Origin: a virus
Taxonomy: Duplodnaviria; Heunggongvirae; Uroviricota; Caudoviricetes
Length of the DNA: 61,742 nucleotides
Reading direction: 5' to 3' (one strand)
IMG/VR virus record: IMGVR_UViG_646311924_000011
The stretch's first letter is position 1. Each line of letters starts with the position of its first letter. Shown in pieces: positions 48,001 to 57,000 of the stretch. The position numbers are program-made.

Positions 48001-51000
48001 AAAAACTTCAGCAACAGGTTATCAACTGGGCGGGAGATGATCCTGATAAGCTGTCATTTGCCAGAAATGTAGCGGCCCGTCAGCCTGAAATGCTGGAACC
48101 TCAGAATCAGAAATTGCTGGAGAACGGGTATGCGAATTTTCTCCGTATTCAAAAGGCCAGGGGGGAACAGGCCAGAGATGAAAGTGCTTCATCTGCATCT
48201 CAGTTTATCCGTGGACTGAAACAGAATTACGCCCAGTAATTCACGATATTCCATTAATACCATTTCCTGATGCCCGGCCATTGTGCCGGGTTTTTTTATG
48301 GAGTCTGTATGGCCTATTCAGAGGAACAGCGTCCTGAGGCGCAACTCGGTAACCAGAATCGTAACAGCCTGAACATTCAGCAACCCGGCGAAACTGACAG
48401 CTATGAAGCATTTTTCTCTGATCCGAATCGCTGGAAGGATAACAGTACGTCGTTCAGCCTGGGCGATGTATTGCCAACAATGGGTAAAGGTTTCGCCCAG
48501 TCCGTCCGGGGAACAGGGGAAATGGCCCGTGGACTCGGTGATGCGATGATTCAGAGCCCGGTAAAAACAGGGGCGCGTATTTTAAATGAGTTCAGCCGTA
48601 TGGGGCTGCCGGGTGTCGCAACTGTGCAGGATATTTTTGCCGGTGGCAGCAGGGGGGCTGATGAGGTCATCGATACCCTGCCTGATGGCAAAAACGCGGT
48701 TACTGATACTGTCGGTAAAGGTCTGAAGGCAACCGGTAAGGCTGTCAGTGATGGTGCCAAAGCCACTGATGAATGGCTGACCGGTAAGATGTCGCCGGGT
48801 GCAGTTCGTGCGCTGAATACGCCGATGACCGAAGGCTATAATGATTCTGCGGTCTGGGTGGCGAAGGGTGTAAACCTGATTGGTGCGCTTGTACCTGATA
48901 TGGTTGCTGGCGGTGTGGCTAGAAAGGTGGGTGATGTCACACTGCGAAAAATGCTGACCGCCGGGCTGGAGAAAAAATACATCGCGGCAGGGATGCAGCC
49001 GGAAAGAGCCACGGCACTGGCAGCAGAAGCTGTCGATAAAAAAATGCCGGATTTATTCCAGGCGGGCCTGATCACCCATTCCACTGTAAGTGCACAGGGG
49101 CAGAGTGCAATGGCGGCAGCAGATGCTGTTCTTAATGCTGATTACTCTGAGCTGGCGCAGTCACCGAAATTTCAGCAGACGTTTTTGTCCATTGACGCCG
49201 ACCCGCAGCACGCACAGCTTACTGATCGCCAGAAAATGGATCTGGCAAAAGAGCGTGTTGCCGATGAGGTGCGCGCGCAGCTGGCAACCGATCCTGAATT
49301 GCTGGCTGTGAATGCCATGGCGGCAAAACTGGGTGACGCACAACTGTTTAATCTGGTGACACGAGGCACAGCGAAGACCGTTAAAAGCGGCATTGTCAGA
49401 AATGCCACGGAACAGGGGGCGATTAATGCGGCGCAGGGCGGCTATTCACGCTATCAGGAAAACACGGCATTGCGTGAGACCGCCGGAATGGGTGTGTCAC
49501 CGTGGGAGGGCGTGGCTGACGCAACGATCGAAGGTGCAGCCTTTGGTGCTGCGATGGGGGCTCCATTCGGTGCGGTTGCCGGATATCGTGGCAGACGTCA
49601 GGCCGCAGAAGAAACCGCCATGCGTGATGCTGAAACCGTGCAGCAGGACGACGCAGCCCCGCAACCAGAATCTGTTGATCCGGTGGCGCAGCAGCGTGAA
49701 TCCATGCAGGGCATGAATCGCGAGCAGCTTCTGGAGCAGTATGCTGATGCGGATATGGCAACAGAGGGTGACGCATCCGCAGCTCATCGCCGGGAAGCTG
49801 CCAGCCAGTTGTTGAATGAACTGGACGAACAGACGAAGCGACAGGCTGTGATGAATGAGCTGAAGGCGAAGCCGCGTTCTGAACTGCTTGAGGAATACCG
49901 CAGACTCAGCCAGAAAGAGGGGCGCACCGAGACTGAAGAACAACAGTTTCAGGCAATACGAGAAGTCATTCGCCCACAACAGGAAGTGACGCCGGAAGCA
50001 CAGTCACAGCCTGAAAATGCGGAGGATGGTAACGGGAGCATTTACCCGACGGTGCGGTTCCGGGACCCGAATGAAGTCCGCATTGAAATTAACGGGAATG
50101 GTGCGTCCAGACCAGCGGAACGCATTGAGAAGGTGCGCCCGGACAACCGTTATTTCACGGATGAGAAAAGCGCCATGGGGAGTGATGTTTTCCGTAATGC
50201 CGCCGCCACCGGCCTGAAACCGTCCGTAGTGAAGAAAGGCGAGAATCAGTATGCCGTTGAAATGGATAATCCTGCGTTCTCTGAAGATGTGGCAACGGAA
50301 ACCATTAACACCCTGGCTGACGGAGAGCGTATTGCTGATGCTGACCCGATGGAGCAGCCCGCGTTCATGCGTGACCCGCGATTCCGTGGTTTCACGGGGG
50401 ATGATACGGAGGTACAGGCCCGCCTTGCCCGTGGCAACGCGCCGACGGCAGAGGAGCTTGTACGTTCACAGATGGCTGAAGGTGATGCCGGTCCGACAGC
50501 ACAGGAGTTAACTGAGCGTCCACGCCTGCCCGCTCCCGGCGATATTCATCCCGGACAGGGATATCCGTTACCGGGAGAAGTGGCGCGTACGCCGGATGAA
50601 AATCAGGCCGGACGTGGTGGTCGTTTTACCACAACCGGTGAGGTTAAGGGCCAGAGTTTCCAGAAAGGACAAGCTCCGGCACCGGAAAACGCCGCTGGTC
50701 GCCAGGGGGAAACACTCGAGGGTGACATGGTTCGTCGTGGTCTGCCGTCACCGGATGCGCAGAACGCGACAGCACCGGTACGTGAAGGGCTACCGGCTCC
50801 TGACATTGCGCGTAATGTTCGTATGCCTCAGCCTGAATCACTTCCCCGCACTGTACGGGACTCACTGCCTGAGCTTGCACAGCAGGCAGAAGTACGCCGA
50901 CAGGCCGGAGGAAATCGTGACATCCCGCAGCCTGAGACAATCGCACCTGAATCTGAAACAACTGTCTCTACTGACAGGGAAGCTACCGTGCGCGGAGGTG

Positions 51001-54000: not shown

Positions 54001-57000
54001 GCCAGATGCAGGATAAATTCCAGGTGCTGAAAGCTGTTCAGGAGAATATCCGTAAAACTGGCGGCAAAGTGGACGACAGTAACAACGCTTATATGGCGGA
54101 AGAACTCTTCCACGGGAAGGCGGAAAACGACCTGAACGTGATGAAGGAGCGCTACGTTCAGCCACTGGCTAAATTACTGGCGGACTACAAAATTGCGCAG
54201 GCCGATCTGGATGAGTACCTCTACGCCCGTCACGCGCCGGAACGTAACGCGCATATCGCGAAAATCAACCCGAAAATGCCGGACGGCGGTTCGGGGATGA
54301 CCAACGCGGAAGCGGCGGAAATCATGCAGCGTGTACGTAACAGTGGCAAACAGGCACAGTATGACCGTCTGGCAGGGATTATTGACGATATGCTGGCCCG
54401 TCGCCGTGAGCTTATCCGTGAGGCCGGACTTGAAGAGAACGGTGTGGTGGATGCCTGGCAGAACGCCTACCGTTACTACGTTCCCCTGAAAGGTCAGGAT
54501 GTTGACGGTGTGGTGTCACTGCCCCGTACAGGTAAGGGCTTCACCATCGGCGGACGTGAAAGCAGGCAGGCCATGGGGCGTGCATCCCGGGCACAGTCTC
54601 CGTCCACTCAGGCGATACAGGACCTGAGCGAATCGCTGATCCGCCATCGCAAAAACGAAGTGGGTAACGCCTTCCTGAAACTGGTGCAGGATAATCCCGA
54701 CAAGGATTACTGGCAGGTATTCACCGATGACAGACCGGATACCATGCGGACGATTGCAGAGCGCAAGGACCAGGAAACTGGTGAAACCATTCGCGAAGTT
54801 GTCGAACGCCCTGTACCGATGGCAATGATGGCAGACCGGTACTTCACCACCAAAAAGAACGGCAAAACGTACTACATCAAACTCCATGATCCGCGCCTGA
54901 TGCGTGCGATGAAGAGTATGGGACCGGAAACCAGCAATGCCTTTGTTCGTACGCTGGGGAAAGTTAACCGCTTCCTGGCAACGGTGAACACGTCGTATAA
55001 CCCGGAATTCCTGGTCAGTAACTTCATCCGTGACGTGCAGACGGCGGTGATGAACCTGAAGGCGGAGCAGGGAAGGAGCGACGGTAAACTGAAAGGGCTG
55101 GATAACTTATCCGCCCTGGCTGTGGTGAAAGACAGCCGTTCTGCCATGTCAGCCGTATACGCCAGTCTGCGTGGTAAAACCCTCACGGGAAAAGGTGCAC
55201 AGTGGCAGAAGGTGTGGAAAGAGTTTGTTGAGGACGGAGGGAAAACCGGCTGGTTTAACATGGGTGACCTTGAAGGCCAGCAGAAGGAAATGGATCGCCT
55301 TGTCTCACTGGCGAAGGGGGGATGGAAAGGCCAGAGTATCGGTGCATGGAATTCGTTCCTTAACCTTGTCGAGGATGCCAACGGTGCGGTTGAAAACGCT
55401 CTGCGTCTTTCTGCCTATAAGCACGCCCGTGATGCCGGTTTGTCACGCCAGCAGGCGGCGTCTCTTGCCAAAAACATGACGGTGAACTTTAACCGTCGTG
55501 GTGAGCAGGGGGCGCTGATGAATTCGCTGTACATGTTCGCCAACGCCAGCATTCAGGGAACGGCAAATCTGGTGAGAACGCTCGGACATCTTAATGGTGA
55601 GGGACCTTTACTGGAGCGCCTTCGCTGGAAGAATCTGAATGTTCCGCAGAAAATCGCGCTTGCCGCTGTGGGAGCAGGTTATCTGCTTGGCTCGCTTAAC
55701 CGCAGCGTGGCGGGTGAGGATGATGACGGGGTTAACTGGTATGACAAGGTGCCGTCTCATGTGAAAGAGCGTAACCTCGTCATTATGAAATCGGTGTTCG
55801 GGGGCAAGGCCGGAGAGTACTGGAGTATTCCTCTGCCTTACGGGTACAACGTTTTCTTCCTGCTCGGGCATACTGCTGAAGGTGTGGCGGCGGGTGACCT
55901 GACGGCGTCCCGTGCTGCCGGTAATGTTGTTGGTGGTGTGCTTGGTGCATTCAGCCCGATTGGCAGTGAGACGTCGGAAACACTGTCCGGGGCATTGCTG
56001 AAAAATGCAGCGCCGACCATTCTGCGTCCGTTTGCGAACCTTGCCATGAATGAAAACTTCATGGGGGCGCAGATTTACCAGGAGAACATGCCGTTTGGTA
56101 CACCAAAACCTGACAGCCAGCTGGGAAGACGTTCAACGCCAGAAGCGTACAAGGCGTTTGCATCCTGGCTGAATGCGTTCTCAGGTGGCAGCCAGTACCG
56201 TCCCGGCGCGGTGGATATCACACCGGAATCGCTGAAATTCTGGATTGACTATATCTCCGGAGGGACAGGGCGCTTCATTTCCAAAACCACGGATGCGGCG
56301 GTGAAATCGCTGAATGGTATTGATATACCGGAACAGCAGGTGCCCTTCCTGGGGAAAATTTCGGGGGAGGTGATGCCGTATGCAGACCAGCAGAAGATGT
56401 ACGACCGGATGACAGAGATTGCGCAGTATCACGCAGAGCTGAAGAGTCTGACCGGTGCAGAAAGAACGGCGTTCATTGACGAGAACAACGGAAAATTGTC
56501 GATGAACGGGCTTATGCAGGATACCCGGAAGAGACTGAAGGATTTGCGTAAACAGCGTGATGCCATTTACGCCGACAGTACTCTCAGTCTGGCGCAACAG
56601 TCGGCGATGGTGAAATCGGTAGAGCGGGATATGAAAATTGCCGTGGATCGGTTTAACCGCGAGTACAACAAAAAAGTGGGAGTGGATTAACAGAAATGGC
56701 CCCGTACGGAAGTGCGGGGCTGATTAAGAAATAAACACTCATTGACCTGTAATAACCGGAGCTATTAACATATAGTCAGAAGAGCATTTCATGTGATACA
56801 GAGAGCCGATTTATGTTTAATGAAGAAAAAGTTGCGCAAATGGCAGCGTATTTGCTGAAAAAGCATGGCGGATCTATGCGTTTCATTAAGCTGAAGCAGC
56901 AACGGTAATGGCGAATAGCATTTATGAGCAAAATAATCTTGATATGTTATTAGGCGATCTGATGTAACCGGGATGATGTTCACCCCTTATCGCCGGGGAA

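What the first reader, a model, noticed from the sequence alone, without database searches (positions are those of the whole stretch)
48309..56690. Giant 2793-aa virion-module protein with two zincin-like HExxH motifs
An uninterrupted 8.4-kb ORF follows a strong terminator. It has a Gly/Ala-rich N-terminal region, a central segment carrying HEWFH (52158-52172) and HEIIHHAMEH (52959-52988), and clustered hydrophobic helices near the C-terminus. This architecture fits the large polyvalent proteins that phages eject with their DNA to counter host defences, with a membrane-inserting C-terminus and enzymatic cargo domains; the individual domains are unassigned here and may include uncharacterised anti-defence activities.
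Basis: partly seen in the sequence, partly recalled or inferred. Interest (0 to 1): 0.75.

Follow-up and report, generated by a model that had tools for sequence, protein, structure and literature searches.

The report
Giant packaged polyvalent protein of Stx phage
This 2,793-residue gene is the already-described giant virion protein (Sp5 ORF80 / phi24B gp47) of short-tailed Shiga-toxin phages, an essential capsid-packaged protein that carries two conserved zinc-protease domains and an RNase-like domain on a conserved delivery module.

Summary
The observation mostly holds. A 2,793-aa ORF (48309-56690) follows a strong terminator, and both HExxH motifs are at the stated coordinates (chance expectation about 0.04 per protein). 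The claimed C-terminal hydrophobic helices do not exceed shuffled controls.

The window is a VT2-Sakai/933W-type Stx2 prophage. The gene is Sp5 ORF80 (ECs1242), shown in 2016 to be essential. Its phi24B homologue gp47 was found by proteomics in 2026 to be an abundant virion protein that is invisible in cryo-EM.

What I add:
- Motif 1 is invariant in 80/80 divergent homologues, together with H1263, D1291 and E1375.
- Motif 2 belongs to a family that is HExxxH in 151/158 members, with an invariant E1607.
- The C-terminal ~910 aa is a lineage-wide module (332 phage genomes) with no solved structural relative and with variable upstream cargo.

Its biochemistry and its ejection into the host remain untested.

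The parts
48272..48298 (+). Intrinsic terminator-like hairpin plus T-run between ORF79 and ORF80. The late transcript must read through it.
   Evidence: Best terminator-like site in 46.5-58.5 kb: 7 stem pairs, 6 of them GC, followed by TTTTTTT.
48299..48302 (+). GGAG ribosome-binding site 6 nt upstream of the ATG at 48309.
   Evidence: Read directly from the sequence.
48309..56690 (+). CDS of the giant protein (2,793 aa plus stop). It is Sp5 ORF80/ECs1242, VT2-Sakai orf71, and the homologue of phi24B gp47.
   Evidence: Translation. 100% nucleotide identity to VT2-Sakai and 186 phage records at 90% identity or more. Literature.
48309..49628 (+). N-terminal Gly/Ala-rich module (aa 1 to about 440). 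It is retained in natural deletion variants and is weakly conserved in distant giant proteins.
   Evidence: Composition. P0125 keeps aa 1-496 and P0415 keeps aa 1-379. P0215, P0217 and P0222 match aa 1 to about 456-808 at 26-30% identity.
49524..49607 (+). Glycine-zipper-like stretch IEGAAFGAAMGAPFGAVAGY (aa 406-433).
   Evidence: KD19 score 1.14. Weak Pfam Gly-zipper_YMGG hit, E = 0.03.
49629..51008 (+). Acidic, Pro/Gln-rich low-complexity linker (aa about 441-900).
   Evidence: Composition and hydropathy of -0.7 to -1.2. No Pfam hit. Variability hot spot at aa 801-900.
50514..50540 (+). Conserved linear motif RPRLPAPGD (aa 736-744). It is the first of five R-x-x-[LMI]-P-x-P motifs at aa 740-875.
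   Evidence: Motif list. The motif is conserved in Salmonella and in homologues of 26-30% identity: ERPRLPSPGD, RRPRLPAPGQ, RAPRLPAPGD.
51459..51908 (+). Pfam LPD5 (aa 1051-1200). Its conserved C-terminal part runs directly into zincin domain 1.
   Evidence: Pfam E = 6.5e-45. Conserved R1175, R1182, G1184 and R1188.
51831..52643 (+). Zincin metallopeptidase domain 1 (aa about 1175-1445). It includes what Pfam calls LPD1 (aa 1361-1440).
52158..52172 (+). HEWFH catalytic motif 1 (aa 1284-1288), followed by D1291.
52731..53243 (+). Zincin metallopeptidase domain 2 (aa about 1475-1645), a member of the HExxxH family.
   Evidence: 419 relatives found, mostly inside giant proteins of 2-6 kaa. H1551 154/157, E1552 155/157, H1556 136/157, E1607 161/161, E1614 148/162. 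AF2 topology.
52959..52976 (+). HEIIHH motif 2 (aa 1551-1556). It can be read as HExxH or HExxxH.
   Evidence: 151/158 family members have HExxxH only. ORF80's 6-member subclade fits both spacings.
53526..53828 (+). MuF-C / PBECR domain (aa about 1740-1840), an RNase-toxin-like BECR fold.
53946..56687 (+). Conserved C-terminal module (aa about 1880-2793), mostly helical. It is shared across the lineage, while the upstream cargo varies.
55734..56351 (+). Pfam LPD38 (aa 2476-2681) inside the C-terminal module. It holds the moderately hydrophobic Gly/Ala-rich helices.
   Evidence: Pfam E = 7.6e-48. phrog_10089 'DarB-like antirestriction' matches aa 2351-2681. Hydropathy 0.9-1.2.
45522..48239 (+). 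Upstream block of four genes: gp51-like (45522-46253), gp50-like (46250-46702), gp49-like (46712-46963) and ORF79/gp48-like (46974-48239). They are probable co-packaged internal/ejection proteins.
   Evidence: phi24B gp51, gp50 and gp48 are estimated at about 22, 36 and 30 copies per virion and are marked 'ND' in the structure. ORF79 is essential. The gp49-like protein has a C-terminal glycine zipper (KD19 1.69; Pfam E = 9.4e-6).

Best explanation
ORF80 is a phage-type polyvalent protein that is packaged inside the capsid and is probably ejected at infection.

It is made late from the antiterminated late transcript, which would read through the hairpin at 48272. This is inferred from established lambdoid biology. 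About 10-35 copies of the roughly 305-kDa polypeptide are incorporated into the T=9 head, together with the products of the four genes just upstream. This was shown for the phi24B homologues.

Its presence is needed to obtain infectious, fibre-bearing particles, but not for head assembly or DNA packaging. This was shown for Sp5.

On infection, once the central needle is released, the internal proteins would leave through the tail. The conserved N-terminal (about 440 aa) and C-terminal (about 910 aa) modules, together with the small glycine-zipper partner proteins, would build or extend the path across the envelope. This step is inferred by analogy with T7 gp14/15/16 and with N4-like gp71-73.

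The central cassette is cargo. It has two zincin metallopeptidase domains with intact, invariant metal and catalytic residues, and a BECR-fold RNase-like (MuF-C/PBECR) domain with an intact His/Ser pair. The zincins most likely cleave the polyprotein itself (possibly in the Pro-rich linker) or a host protein, freeing the RNase-like domain to act on RNA in the cytoplasm. This last step is also inferred.
For: Identity with Sp5 ORF80:
- 100% nucleotide identity to VT2-Sakai.

Essentiality:
- An in-frame deletion gives no plaques and no lysogens and is complemented in trans. DNase-resistant DNA is at wild-type level, heads look normal, and there is no anti-fibre labelling.

Packaging:
- phi24B gp47 has 10,962 PSMs (second only to the major capsid protein), 93.6% coverage and about 19 copies per virion, and it is absent from the map.

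Polyvalent domains:
-.

Zincin 1:
- H1263, HEWFH, D1291 and E1375/E1382 are invariant in about 80 homologues below 70% identity. This matches Iyer's description of the phage-type MPTase clade.

Zincin 2:
- H1551/E1552/H1556 and E1607 are conserved across 157-161 sequences.

Folds:

PBECR:
- H1752 and S1816 are invariant.

Chassis plus cargo:
- The C-terminal module is conserved at 33-58% identity under differing upstream domains.
- It is present in 332 phage genomes of 50-66 kb.
- Natural variants P0125 and P0415 drop aa 497-1692 and 380-1382 but keep both ends.
- Another LPD38 protein, PTXU04_00025, is also needed for infection, and Bcep22-like gp69 is virion-associated.

Precedent for an ejection operon:
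- T7 gp14/15/16 and the DEV ejection operon, small membrane protein plus mid-size protein plus giant protein.
- The gp49-like glycine zipper.
Against: - Nobody has shown that gp47/ORF80 leaves the virion or enters the cell.
- The deletion phenotype (loss of tail-fibre labelling; data not shown in the paper) is not the classic ejection-protein phenotype, in which particles look complete but are non-infectious.
- There is no evidence of defined proteolytic processing. The gel-slice counts peak in the top slices and then smear downward, and the sample had been stored for 6 months.
- Copy number is a rough estimate (11-35).
- The C-terminal module has no transmembrane-grade hydrophobic segment and no structural similarity to known ejection proteins.
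- No peptidoglycan hydrolase was found in ORF80 or its neighbours.
- Foldseek found nothing significant.
- The virion data come from a preprint on a homologue, not from this phage.
Confidence: 0.62

Rival explanations
1. ORF80 is primarily a morphogenetic or structural factor for tail completion, such as a portal/tail plug, scaffold or assembly chaperone. In this reading the enzymatic domains are secondary or act only during assembly, for example in maturation cleavage inside the head, and the protein is not delivered to the host.
For: - The ORF80 deletion gives DNA-filled heads without tail-fibre labelling, and the 2016 authors classed the gene as a tail-formation gene.
- The phi24B authors note that internal tail contents might constrain tail orientation in intact particles.
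- Iyer et al. consider MPTase action inside the head as one option.
Against: - About 19 copies of a 305-kDa protein is far more than a plug needs.
- It is not seen in the tail map.
- The catalytic residues of a BECR RNase-like domain are invariant, and an RNase has no obvious substrate during assembly.
- The swappable-cargo architecture fits delivery rather than scaffolding.
Confidence: 0.18
2. ORF80 is an ejection protein whose metallopeptidase degrades peptidoglycan so that a trans-periplasmic conduit can reach the inner membrane. This is the phi24B preprint's proposal, which assigns the peptidase activity to MuF-C.
For: - Podovirus ejectosomes usually need a cell-wall-opening activity.
- The related Bcep22-like giant proteins carry an N-terminal LT-like domain.
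- ORF80 has two conserved zincins.
Against: - MuF-C is a BECR-fold, RNase-like domain, not a peptidase.
- The zincin structural neighbours are protein endopeptidases (lethal factor, Pro-Pro endopeptidases, MtfA, Spartan), not cell-wall peptidases.
- The same MPTase clades occur in conjugative-element polyvalent proteins, where Iyer et al. argue for autoprocessing.
- No lysozyme, LT, M15 or M23 domain was detected.
Confidence: 0.1
3. ORF80 is a dedicated anti-defence effector of the DarB type. In this reading it is an accessory factor that protects incoming DNA from restriction or other immunity.
For: - phrog_10089 'DarB-like antirestriction' matches aa 2351-2681.
- Relatives in Ralstonia and Burkholderia phages are annotated as DarB-like.
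- Polyvalent proteins are predicted counter-defence agents.
- The PBECR region is a variability hot spot among E. coli alleles.
Against: - The shared part is only the LPD38 C-terminal module.
- ORF80 has no methyltransferase or helicase domain.
- It is essential when phage is made in and tested on the same K-12 MG1655 background, which restriction evasion cannot explain.
- There are no PADLOC matches.
Confidence: 0.07

Closest known systems
phi24B gp47 / Sp5 ORF80 (ECs1242) / VT2-Sakai orf71: the same protein family in short-tailed Stx phages (Traversvirus)
   Same: The nucleotide sequence is identical to VT2-Sakai. Essentiality and the DNA-filled-heads phenotype were shown for Sp5. Virion association, LPD5/LPD1/LPD38/MuF-C annotation and the ejection-protein proposal were published for phi24B.
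   Different: Nothing differs at the gene level. My analysis differs from the preprint in three ways. It assigns the peptidase activity to two separate zincin domains rather than to MuF-C. It calls MuF-C an RNase-like BECR domain. It separates the constant end modules from the variable cargo.
Phage-type polyvalent proteins (Iyer et al. 2017, PMC5512222)
   Same: It has multiple unrelated domains in one giant polypeptide and is encoded in the virion module. It carries MPTase hub domains, including the clade with His on strand 2 and Asp at +3 and the HExxxH clade. It also carries PBECR/MuF-C and the phage-only LPD38.
   Different: Polyvalent proteins were predicted to be accessory conflict factors, whereas this one is essential. 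LPD5 and LPD1 appear here to be the flanks of one zincin unit rather than independent domains.
Bcep22/JC1 'DarB-like' giant virion protein (gp75/gp69, about 4,500 aa) and Ralstonia GP4-like equivalents
   Same: These are related podoviruses, with head genes homologous to 933W. The giant gene sits at the end of the virion module, is virion-associated by MS, and shares the LPD38-containing C-terminal module at about 27% identity over about 81% of its length.
   Different: Their cargo is an LT-like domain plus methyltransferase, helicase and LPD3. ORF80 has none of these and instead carries two zincins and a PBECR domain.
N4/DEV virion RNA polymerase with its ejection operon (gp71-73), and T7 gp14/gp15/gp16
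   Same: These are T=9 or podovirus particles that package a giant protein internally. The operon encodes a small membrane protein, a mid-size protein and a giant protein, which are proposed to form a trans-envelope ejection apparatus. N4 vRNAP also contains an MPTase domain according to Iyer.
   Different: No RNA polymerase domain is present, and there is no detectable sequence or fold similarity to these proteins. The copy-number estimate is much higher than the few copies known for N4 vRNAP (the N4 figure is from my own knowledge, not tested here).
Zincin endopeptidases of the anthrax lethal factor / Pro-Pro endopeptidase (ATLF-like) and MtfA type; BrnT/RelE BECR RNase toxins
   Different: Sequence identity is only 7-16%. 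No Pfam or PDB sequence-level link exists for zincin domain 2. No activity has been shown.

Membership tests
Phage-type polyvalent protein (Iyer 2017) | Two or more domains of disparate biochemical type in one polypeptide, including LPD signature domains | tested here: met
   Pfam LPD5, LPD1, MuF_C and LPD38 all score above their curated cut-offs. Two zincin domains and one BECR domain are also present.
Phage-type polyvalent protein (Iyer 2017) | Encoded among virion genes and packaged in the virion | tested here: met
   It is the last gene of the late/virion operon. The homologue gp47 is in purified virions with 93.6% coverage (literature data on the homologue, not this phage).
Phage-type polyvalent protein (Iyer 2017) | Delivered into the host cell with the DNA | not testable with these tools
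   This is only proposed in the preprint. No experiment was found.
Zincin MPTase, phage-type clade (HExxH, with Asp at +3 and His on strand 2) | Invariant HExxH, Asp three residues after the motif, His at strand 2, and a Glu on a downstream helix | tested here: met
   H1284, E1285 and H1288 80/80; D1291 80/80; H1263 79/79, lying in predicted strand 2; E1375 79/79 in a predicted helix. Definition.
Zincin MPTase, phage-type clade (HExxH, with Asp at +3 and His on strand 2) | Zincin fold | tested here: met
Zincin MPTase, HExxxH clade | HExxxH motif plus a downstream conserved Glu | tested here: met
   151/158 family members are HExxxH. ORF80's HEIIHH fits both spacings. E1607 is 161/161. The predicted topology is zincin-like. 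No curated Pfam or PDB sequence match exists.
Zincin MPTase (both domains) | Zn-dependent peptidase activity | not testable with these tools
   No biochemical data were found.
PBECR / MuF-C (BECR-fold RNase-like) | Pfam MuF_C match, conserved His near the N-terminal helix, and Ser/Thr on strand 4 | tested here: met
   Pfam E = 1.3e-17. H1752 79/79. S1816 82/82 on the fourth predicted strand. Definition.
PBECR / MuF-C (BECR-fold RNase-like) | BECR fold | tested here: met
DarB-type antirestriction protein (P1 DarB, Bcep22 gp75) | DNA methyltransferase plus SF2 helicase dyad | tested here: not met
   No methylase or helicase hit was found in Pfam, NCBIfam or on sub-segments. Only the LPD38 module is shared.
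Podovirus ejection proteins (T7 gp14-16, P22 gp7/20/16, DEV gp71-73) | Internal virion location and requirement for infectivity | tested here: met
   This rests on the literature only: the protein is virion-associated but absent from the map and is essential.
Podovirus ejection proteins (T7 gp14-16, P22 gp7/20/16, DEV gp71-73) | Sequence or fold homology to a known ejection protein, or a lytic transglycosylase domain | tested here: not met
AAA+ ATPase (the COG1483 hint in Mondal 2016) | Walker A motif and an AAA+ domain match | tested here: not met
   No [GA]xxxxGK[ST] motif occurs anywhere in the protein. No AAA hit was found in Pfam or NCBIfam.
Tape-measure / tail-fibre repeat protein | Tape-measure or fibre repeat domains | tested here: not met
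   No such family appears in Pfam or PHROGs for ORF80.

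The most novel reading that the evidence does not exclude
The conserved ends of ORF80 (the N-terminal ~440 aa and the C-terminal ~910 aa that contains LPD38), together with the small glycine-zipper proteins encoded just upstream, may form a structurally unprecedented and essential ejectosome/tail-completion machine shared by the 933W/GP4/Bcep22/Vibrio podovirus lineage. That machine would also serve as a delivery chassis for swappable effector cassettes. In Stx phages the zincins would cut the polyprotein at conserved Pro-rich linker sites (RPRLPAPGD type) and release an active BECR RNase into the cell.
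Probability: 0.3. Interest if true: 0.65.

Novelty: already known. Interest (0 to 1): 0.35.

Why it matters
Short-tailed Stx phages spread Shiga toxin genes among E. coli, so anything essential for their infectivity is medically relevant. This one gene takes up about 14% of the genome, and its product may account for roughly 6 MDa of protein per particle.

Knowing which parts are chassis and which are cargo, and that the catalytic residues of three enzyme domains are under strict conservation, turns a 'hypothetical protein' into a set of precise point-mutant experiments.

It also corrects a domain misassignment in the current literature: MuF-C is RNase-like, not a peptidase. And it shows that polyvalent proteins can be essential rather than accessory. 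The gene itself, its essentiality and its virion location are already published, however.

Tried and rejected
- Transmembrane C-terminus: rejected. No 19-residue window exceeds shuffled controls.
- AAA+ ATPase (COG1483, the 2016 paper's hint): rejected. There is no Walker A motif and no family hit.
- Sequence search of the whole protein against PDB chains: nothing.
- PADLOC defence models: nothing.
- Pfam on the unassigned segments at E up to 10: only noise.
- Scanning 21 divergent members of the zincin-2 family against Pfam, and a profile search against PDB sequences: nothing.
- Genomic context of the distant stand-alone LPD38 protein P0158: a degraded prophage remnant, uninformative. P0205 lies in a tail module but next to an uncalled gap.
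- Mining the phi24B proteomics supplement for cleavage evidence: the peptide sheet is pooled across gel slices, so fragments cannot be mapped. The N-terminal tryptic peptide was not found in the stored part of the file, so the start codon is not verified by MS.
- Promoter-like and terminator-like sites inside the ORF are at chance level.

Full report
**1. The observation**

The + strand carries an uninterrupted reading frame. The mechanical ORF runs 48270-56690 (2,806 codons). The ATG at 48309 gives 2,793 aa. It is preceded by GGAG at 48299-48302 and by the strongest terminator-like hairpin in the 46.5-58.5 kb region (stem 48272-48291 followed by T7). The earlier ATG at 48270 sits immediately before the hairpin, in frame through it. 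GenBank's VT2-Sakai record and the phi24B preprint both use such longer mechanical ORFs.

HEWFH lies at 52158-52172 (aa 1284-1288) and HEIIHHAMEH begins at 52959 (aa 1551). From the protein's own composition, 0.036 HExxH motifs are expected by chance. Residues 101-500 are 25-33% Gly+Ala.

The one part of the observation that fails is the 'clustered hydrophobic helices near the C-terminus'. The best 19-residue hydropathy window in the whole protein scores 1.38, below the mean maximum of shuffled sequences (1.60 +/- 0.25). The C-terminal candidates score 0.9-1.2.

**2. What the window and the gene are**

The 8,382 nt are 100% identical to Enterobacteria phage VT2-Sakai (Traversvirus). They match 186 phage records at 90% identity or more, nearly all Stx-converting phages. 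The left part of the window is 98.7% identical to 933W, starting at position 548.

The gene is therefore Sp5 ORF80 (ECs1242). Mondal et al. 2016 (PMC5155283) made an in-frame, markerless deletion in a K-12 MG1655 lysogen. The mutant gave no plaques and no lysogens on MG1655 and was complemented in trans. It had wild-type levels of DNase-resistant phage DNA and normal-looking heads, but no labelling with anti-tail-fibre antibody. The authors concluded that the gene takes part in tail formation and that its function is unknown.

A 2026 bioRxiv preprint on phi24B (10.64898/2026.04.10.717836) detected the homologue gp47 in purified virions. It noted LPD5, LPD1, LPD38 and MuF-C, did not see the protein in any map, and proposed that it is an encapsidated ejection protein.

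The preprint's supplementary table gives more detail:
- gp47 has 10,962 PSMs, second only to the major capsid protein.
- Coverage is 93.6% from 422 peptides.
- The copy-number estimate is 11-35 per virion (mean about 19).
- Spectral counts peak in the top four gel slices, above the 724-aa portal, and then tail downward.

The peptide corresponding to ORF80 residues 19-41 is present. So essentially the whole polypeptide, cargo domains included, is in the particle.

**3. Domain anatomy**

Pfam assigns four domains:

| Pfam domain | Residues | E-value |
|---|---|---|
| LPD5 | 1051-1200 | 6.5e-45 |
| LPD1 | 1361-1440 | 1e-23 |
| MuF_C | 1750-1839 | 1.3e-17 |
| LPD38 | 2476-2681 | 7.6e-48 |

Neither HExxH motif falls inside a Pfam hit, so I tested each one.

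*Motif 1.* Among about 80 homologues below 70% identity, these residues are conserved:
- H1284, E1285, W1286, H1288 and D1291: 80/80.
- H1263: 79/79.
- E1375: 79/79, and E1382: 78/79.

This matches residue for residue the widely distributed phage-type MPTase clade that Iyer et al. 2017 describe: a His at the end of strand 2 and an Asp three residues after HExxH. NCBIfam's CLCA_X model covers aa 1182-1437 as one unit (E = 2e-43, below its curated subfamily cut-off). The AlphaFold model puts H1263 on the second of three strands, HEWFH on the following helix and E1375 on a later helix. Pfam 'LPD1', and the end of 'LPD5', are therefore best read as flanks of a single zincin domain.

*Motif 2.* An exhaustive search with aa 1440-1750 found 419 relatives, almost all embedded in other proteins of 2,000-6,000 aa. 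Conservation across them:
- H1551: 154/157.
- E1552: 155/157.
- H1556: 136/157 (Tyr in 15).
- E1607: 161/161.
- E1614: 148/162.
- H1555: only 65/157.
- H1560: not conserved.

Raw motif strings show HExxxH alone in 151 of 158 domains. Only ORF80's own 6-member subclade has HE-[IVL]-I-H-H, which fits both spacings. Compared with the sister motif HEVIAHHGL, it looks like a one-residue deletion. Iyer et al. describe exactly such an HEXXXH clade. No curated Pfam model and no PDB sequence matches this family.

- Thermolysin, neprilysin/PepO, Spartan, Wss1, ArdC and minigluzincins.

[quoted passage not shown] H1752 (79/79) and S1816 (82/82) are invariant, and S1816 lies on the fourth predicted strand. 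The preprint's 'MuF-C metallopeptidase' that 'degrades peptidoglycan' is therefore a misassignment. The peptidase candidates are the two zincins, and their structural neighbours are protein endopeptidases.

**4. The ends of the protein**

*C-terminal module.* Residues of about 1880-2793 are conserved as one block (33-58% identity over about 95% of the length) in many proteins whose upstream domains differ: methyltransferases, ART-PolyVal, LPD3, InPase. In 86 divergent sequences, 94 columns are at least 90% conserved.

tblastn finds the full module in 332 phage genomes of about 50-66 kb:
- Stx phages.
- About 100 Vibrio phages (41% identity).
- Ralstonia GP4-like and Burkholderia Bcep22-like phages (about 27% identity).
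- A Bacteroides phage.

In the Bcep22-like phage JC1 the 4,515-aa 'DarB-like' gp69 has LPD38 at 4195-4401 and is virion-associated. The head genes of those phages are homologous to 933W. A 2,198-aa LPD38 protein of phage PTXU04 is required for efficient infection.

*N-terminal region.* The N-terminal 1,050 aa has a narrow distribution, with 69 hits that are essentially all enterobacterial. Its first ~450-800 residues align at 26-30% identity with distant giant proteins.

*Natural deletion variants.* Two complete E. coli proteins are in-frame deletion variants. P0125 joins aa 1-496 to aa 1693-2793, and P0415 joins aa 1-379 to aa 1383-2793. I cannot tell whether they are functional.

*Variability.* Among close E. 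coli alleles, variability concentrates at aa 801-1100 and aa 1701-1900 (the PBECR region). The zincin cores and the C-terminal module stay at 95-99%.

Taken together, these results point to constant end modules carrying a variable central cassette.

**5. Surroundings**

The four genes immediately upstream (45522-48239) correspond to phi24B gp51, gp50, gp49 and gp48. gp51, gp50 and gp48 are estimated at about 22, 36 and 30 copies per virion and are marked 'not determined' in the structure. gp48 is the homologue of Sp5 ORF79, which is also essential with the same phenotype as ORF80.

The 83-aa gp49-like protein ends in a strongly hydrophobic glycine zipper (KD19 1.69; Pfam Gly-zipper_YMGG E = 9.4e-6). 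gp51-like has a similar Gly/Ala-rich C-terminal stretch, and ORF80 has one at aa 406-433.

None of these proteins, and no part of ORF80, matches a peptidoglycan hydrolase.

The layout is a small membrane-type protein, then mid-size proteins, then a giant protein at the end of the operon. This recalls the ejection operons of T7 (gp14/15/16) and the N4-like phage DEV (gp73/72/71), where the giant member is the virion RNA polymerase. phi24B, like N4-like phages and GP4, has a T=9 head.

**6. Most likely mechanism**

*Shown* (in Sp5 or phi24B, not in this exact isolate): the protein is essential for infectious particles, it is not needed for head assembly or DNA packaging, and it is abundant in virions but not ordered in the map.

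*Shown here by computation:* two zincin domains and one BECR domain have strictly conserved catalytic residues and matching folds, and there is a lineage-wide C-terminal module with variable cargo.

*Inferred:*
- Late transcription reads through the upstream hairpin because lambdoid late transcription is antiterminated (established lambdoid biology).
- The protein is loaded into the procapsid along with the upstream gene products.
- After the needle is released it exits through the tail.
- The end modules and the glycine-zipper partner proteins form or extend the trans-envelope path.
- The zincins process the polyprotein or a host protein.
- The RNase-like domain acts in the cytoplasm.

I put overall confidence at about 0.6. 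Polyvalent membership is near certain, virion packaging is very likely, ejection is plausible, and autoprocessing is speculative.

The awkward fact is the loss of fibre labelling in the deletion mutant. It suggests the protein, or part of it, is also needed to complete or stabilise the tail.

**7. Rivals**

- *A purely morphogenetic role.* This fits the deletion phenotype. It does not fit the copy number, the RNase-like cargo or the cassette architecture.
- *The preprint's peptidoglycan-degrading peptidase idea.* It rests on a wrong domain assignment, and the zincins' structural neighbours do not favour it. It has not been excluded experimentally.
- *A DarB-type antirestriction role.* The defining methylase-helicase dyad is absent, and essentiality within one K-12 background is not explained by restriction evasion.
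- *The AAA+ ATPase hint from 2016.* There is no Walker A motif and no family match.

**8. Novelty and score**

The gene, its size, its essentiality, its virion association, its LPD-domain content and the ejection-protein hypothesis are all in the literature. The class was defined computationally in 2017. The finding is therefore 'already known'.

- Precise definition of the two zincin domains and their catalytic residues.
- The HExxH versus HExxxH nuance for motif 2.
- The correction of MuF-C to an RNase-like fold.
- The chassis/cargo dissection, with natural deletion variants.
- The absence of any solved structural relative for the C-terminal module.
- The recognition that the upstream gene block encodes further virion proteins that are invisible in the map.

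Interest is moderate (0.35). A specialist would not be surprised, but the protein is still mechanistically open and is now directly testable.

Noticed in passing
window 45522-48239 (four + strand genes upstream of ORF80): The phi24B homologues gp51, gp50 and gp48 are abundant in virions (about 22, 36 and 30 copies) but are marked 'ND' in the cryo-EM structure and are not discussed in the preprint's text. gp48 is Sp5 ORF79, which is essential. With ORF80 they look like an internal/ejection-protein operon.
   Followed up: partly
window 46712-46963 (83-aa ORF, gp49-like): Its C-terminal half is a hydrophobic glycine zipper, GTGIGTGAAIGASVGGPVGAVAGAVIGGIAGSLF (KD19 1.69; Pfam Gly-zipper_YMGG E = 9.4e-6; Bacteriocin_IIc E = 8.8e-4). 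The preprint dismissed it as a 'bacteriocin' contaminant, but it could be the small membrane-inserting member of the ejection set.
   Followed up: partly
window 50514-50540 (aa 736-744), with further copies up to aa 875: The linear motif R-P-R-L-P-A-P-G-D is conserved in homologues down to about 26% identity, inside an otherwise poorly conserved linker. Four more R-x-x-[LMI]-P-x-P motifs follow it. It is a candidate cleavage or docking site. Pro-Pro endopeptidases are among the zincins' best structural neighbours, but these sites are P-x-P, not P-P.
   Followed up: partly
proteins P0125 and P0415 (E. coli), mapped to ORF80 aa 1-496+1693-2793 and aa 1-379+1383-2793: These are natural in-frame deletion variants that lack the linker and zincin cassette but keep both end modules and MuF-C. 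I do not know whether they sit in active phages or in decaying prophages.
   Followed up: no
window 53409-54008 (aa 1701-1900) and 50709-51608 (aa 801-1100): These are variability hot spots among close E. coli alleles (73-85% identity, against 95-99% elsewhere). The first covers the PBECR/MuF-C domain, which suggests allelic exchange of the effector domain. For example, cluster P0061 is 96% identical in the C-terminal module but 67% identical in the MuF-C region.
   Followed up: partly
window 48270-48308: Public records start this gene at the upstream ATG, so that the reading frame runs through the terminator hairpin (VT2-Sakai orf71 at 2,806 aa; phi24B at 2,811 aa). The record AP005153 splits the same ORF into 19 'hypothetical proteins'. 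The N-terminal tryptic peptide could not be found in the stored MS table, so the start is still unverified by proteomics.
   Followed up: partly
bioRxiv 10.64898/2026.04.10.717836, text on gp47: The preprint calls MuF-C a metallopeptidase that degrades peptidoglycan. By definition (Iyer 2017), conserved residues and fold, MuF-C is a BECR RNase-like domain. The two real zincin domains are not mentioned there.
   Followed up: yes
window 57705-57917 (- strand): A Hok/Gef-type small toxin gene lies just downstream of the late operon, on the opposite strand (PHROG 'MokW-like host killing', E = 2.6e-32; annotated as a gef homologue in VT2-Sakai).
   Followed up: no
window 43938-44672: A Lom outer-membrane protein homologue sits inside the virion gene block. 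phi24B Lom was detected at trace level in virion preparations and classed as a contaminant.
   Followed up: no
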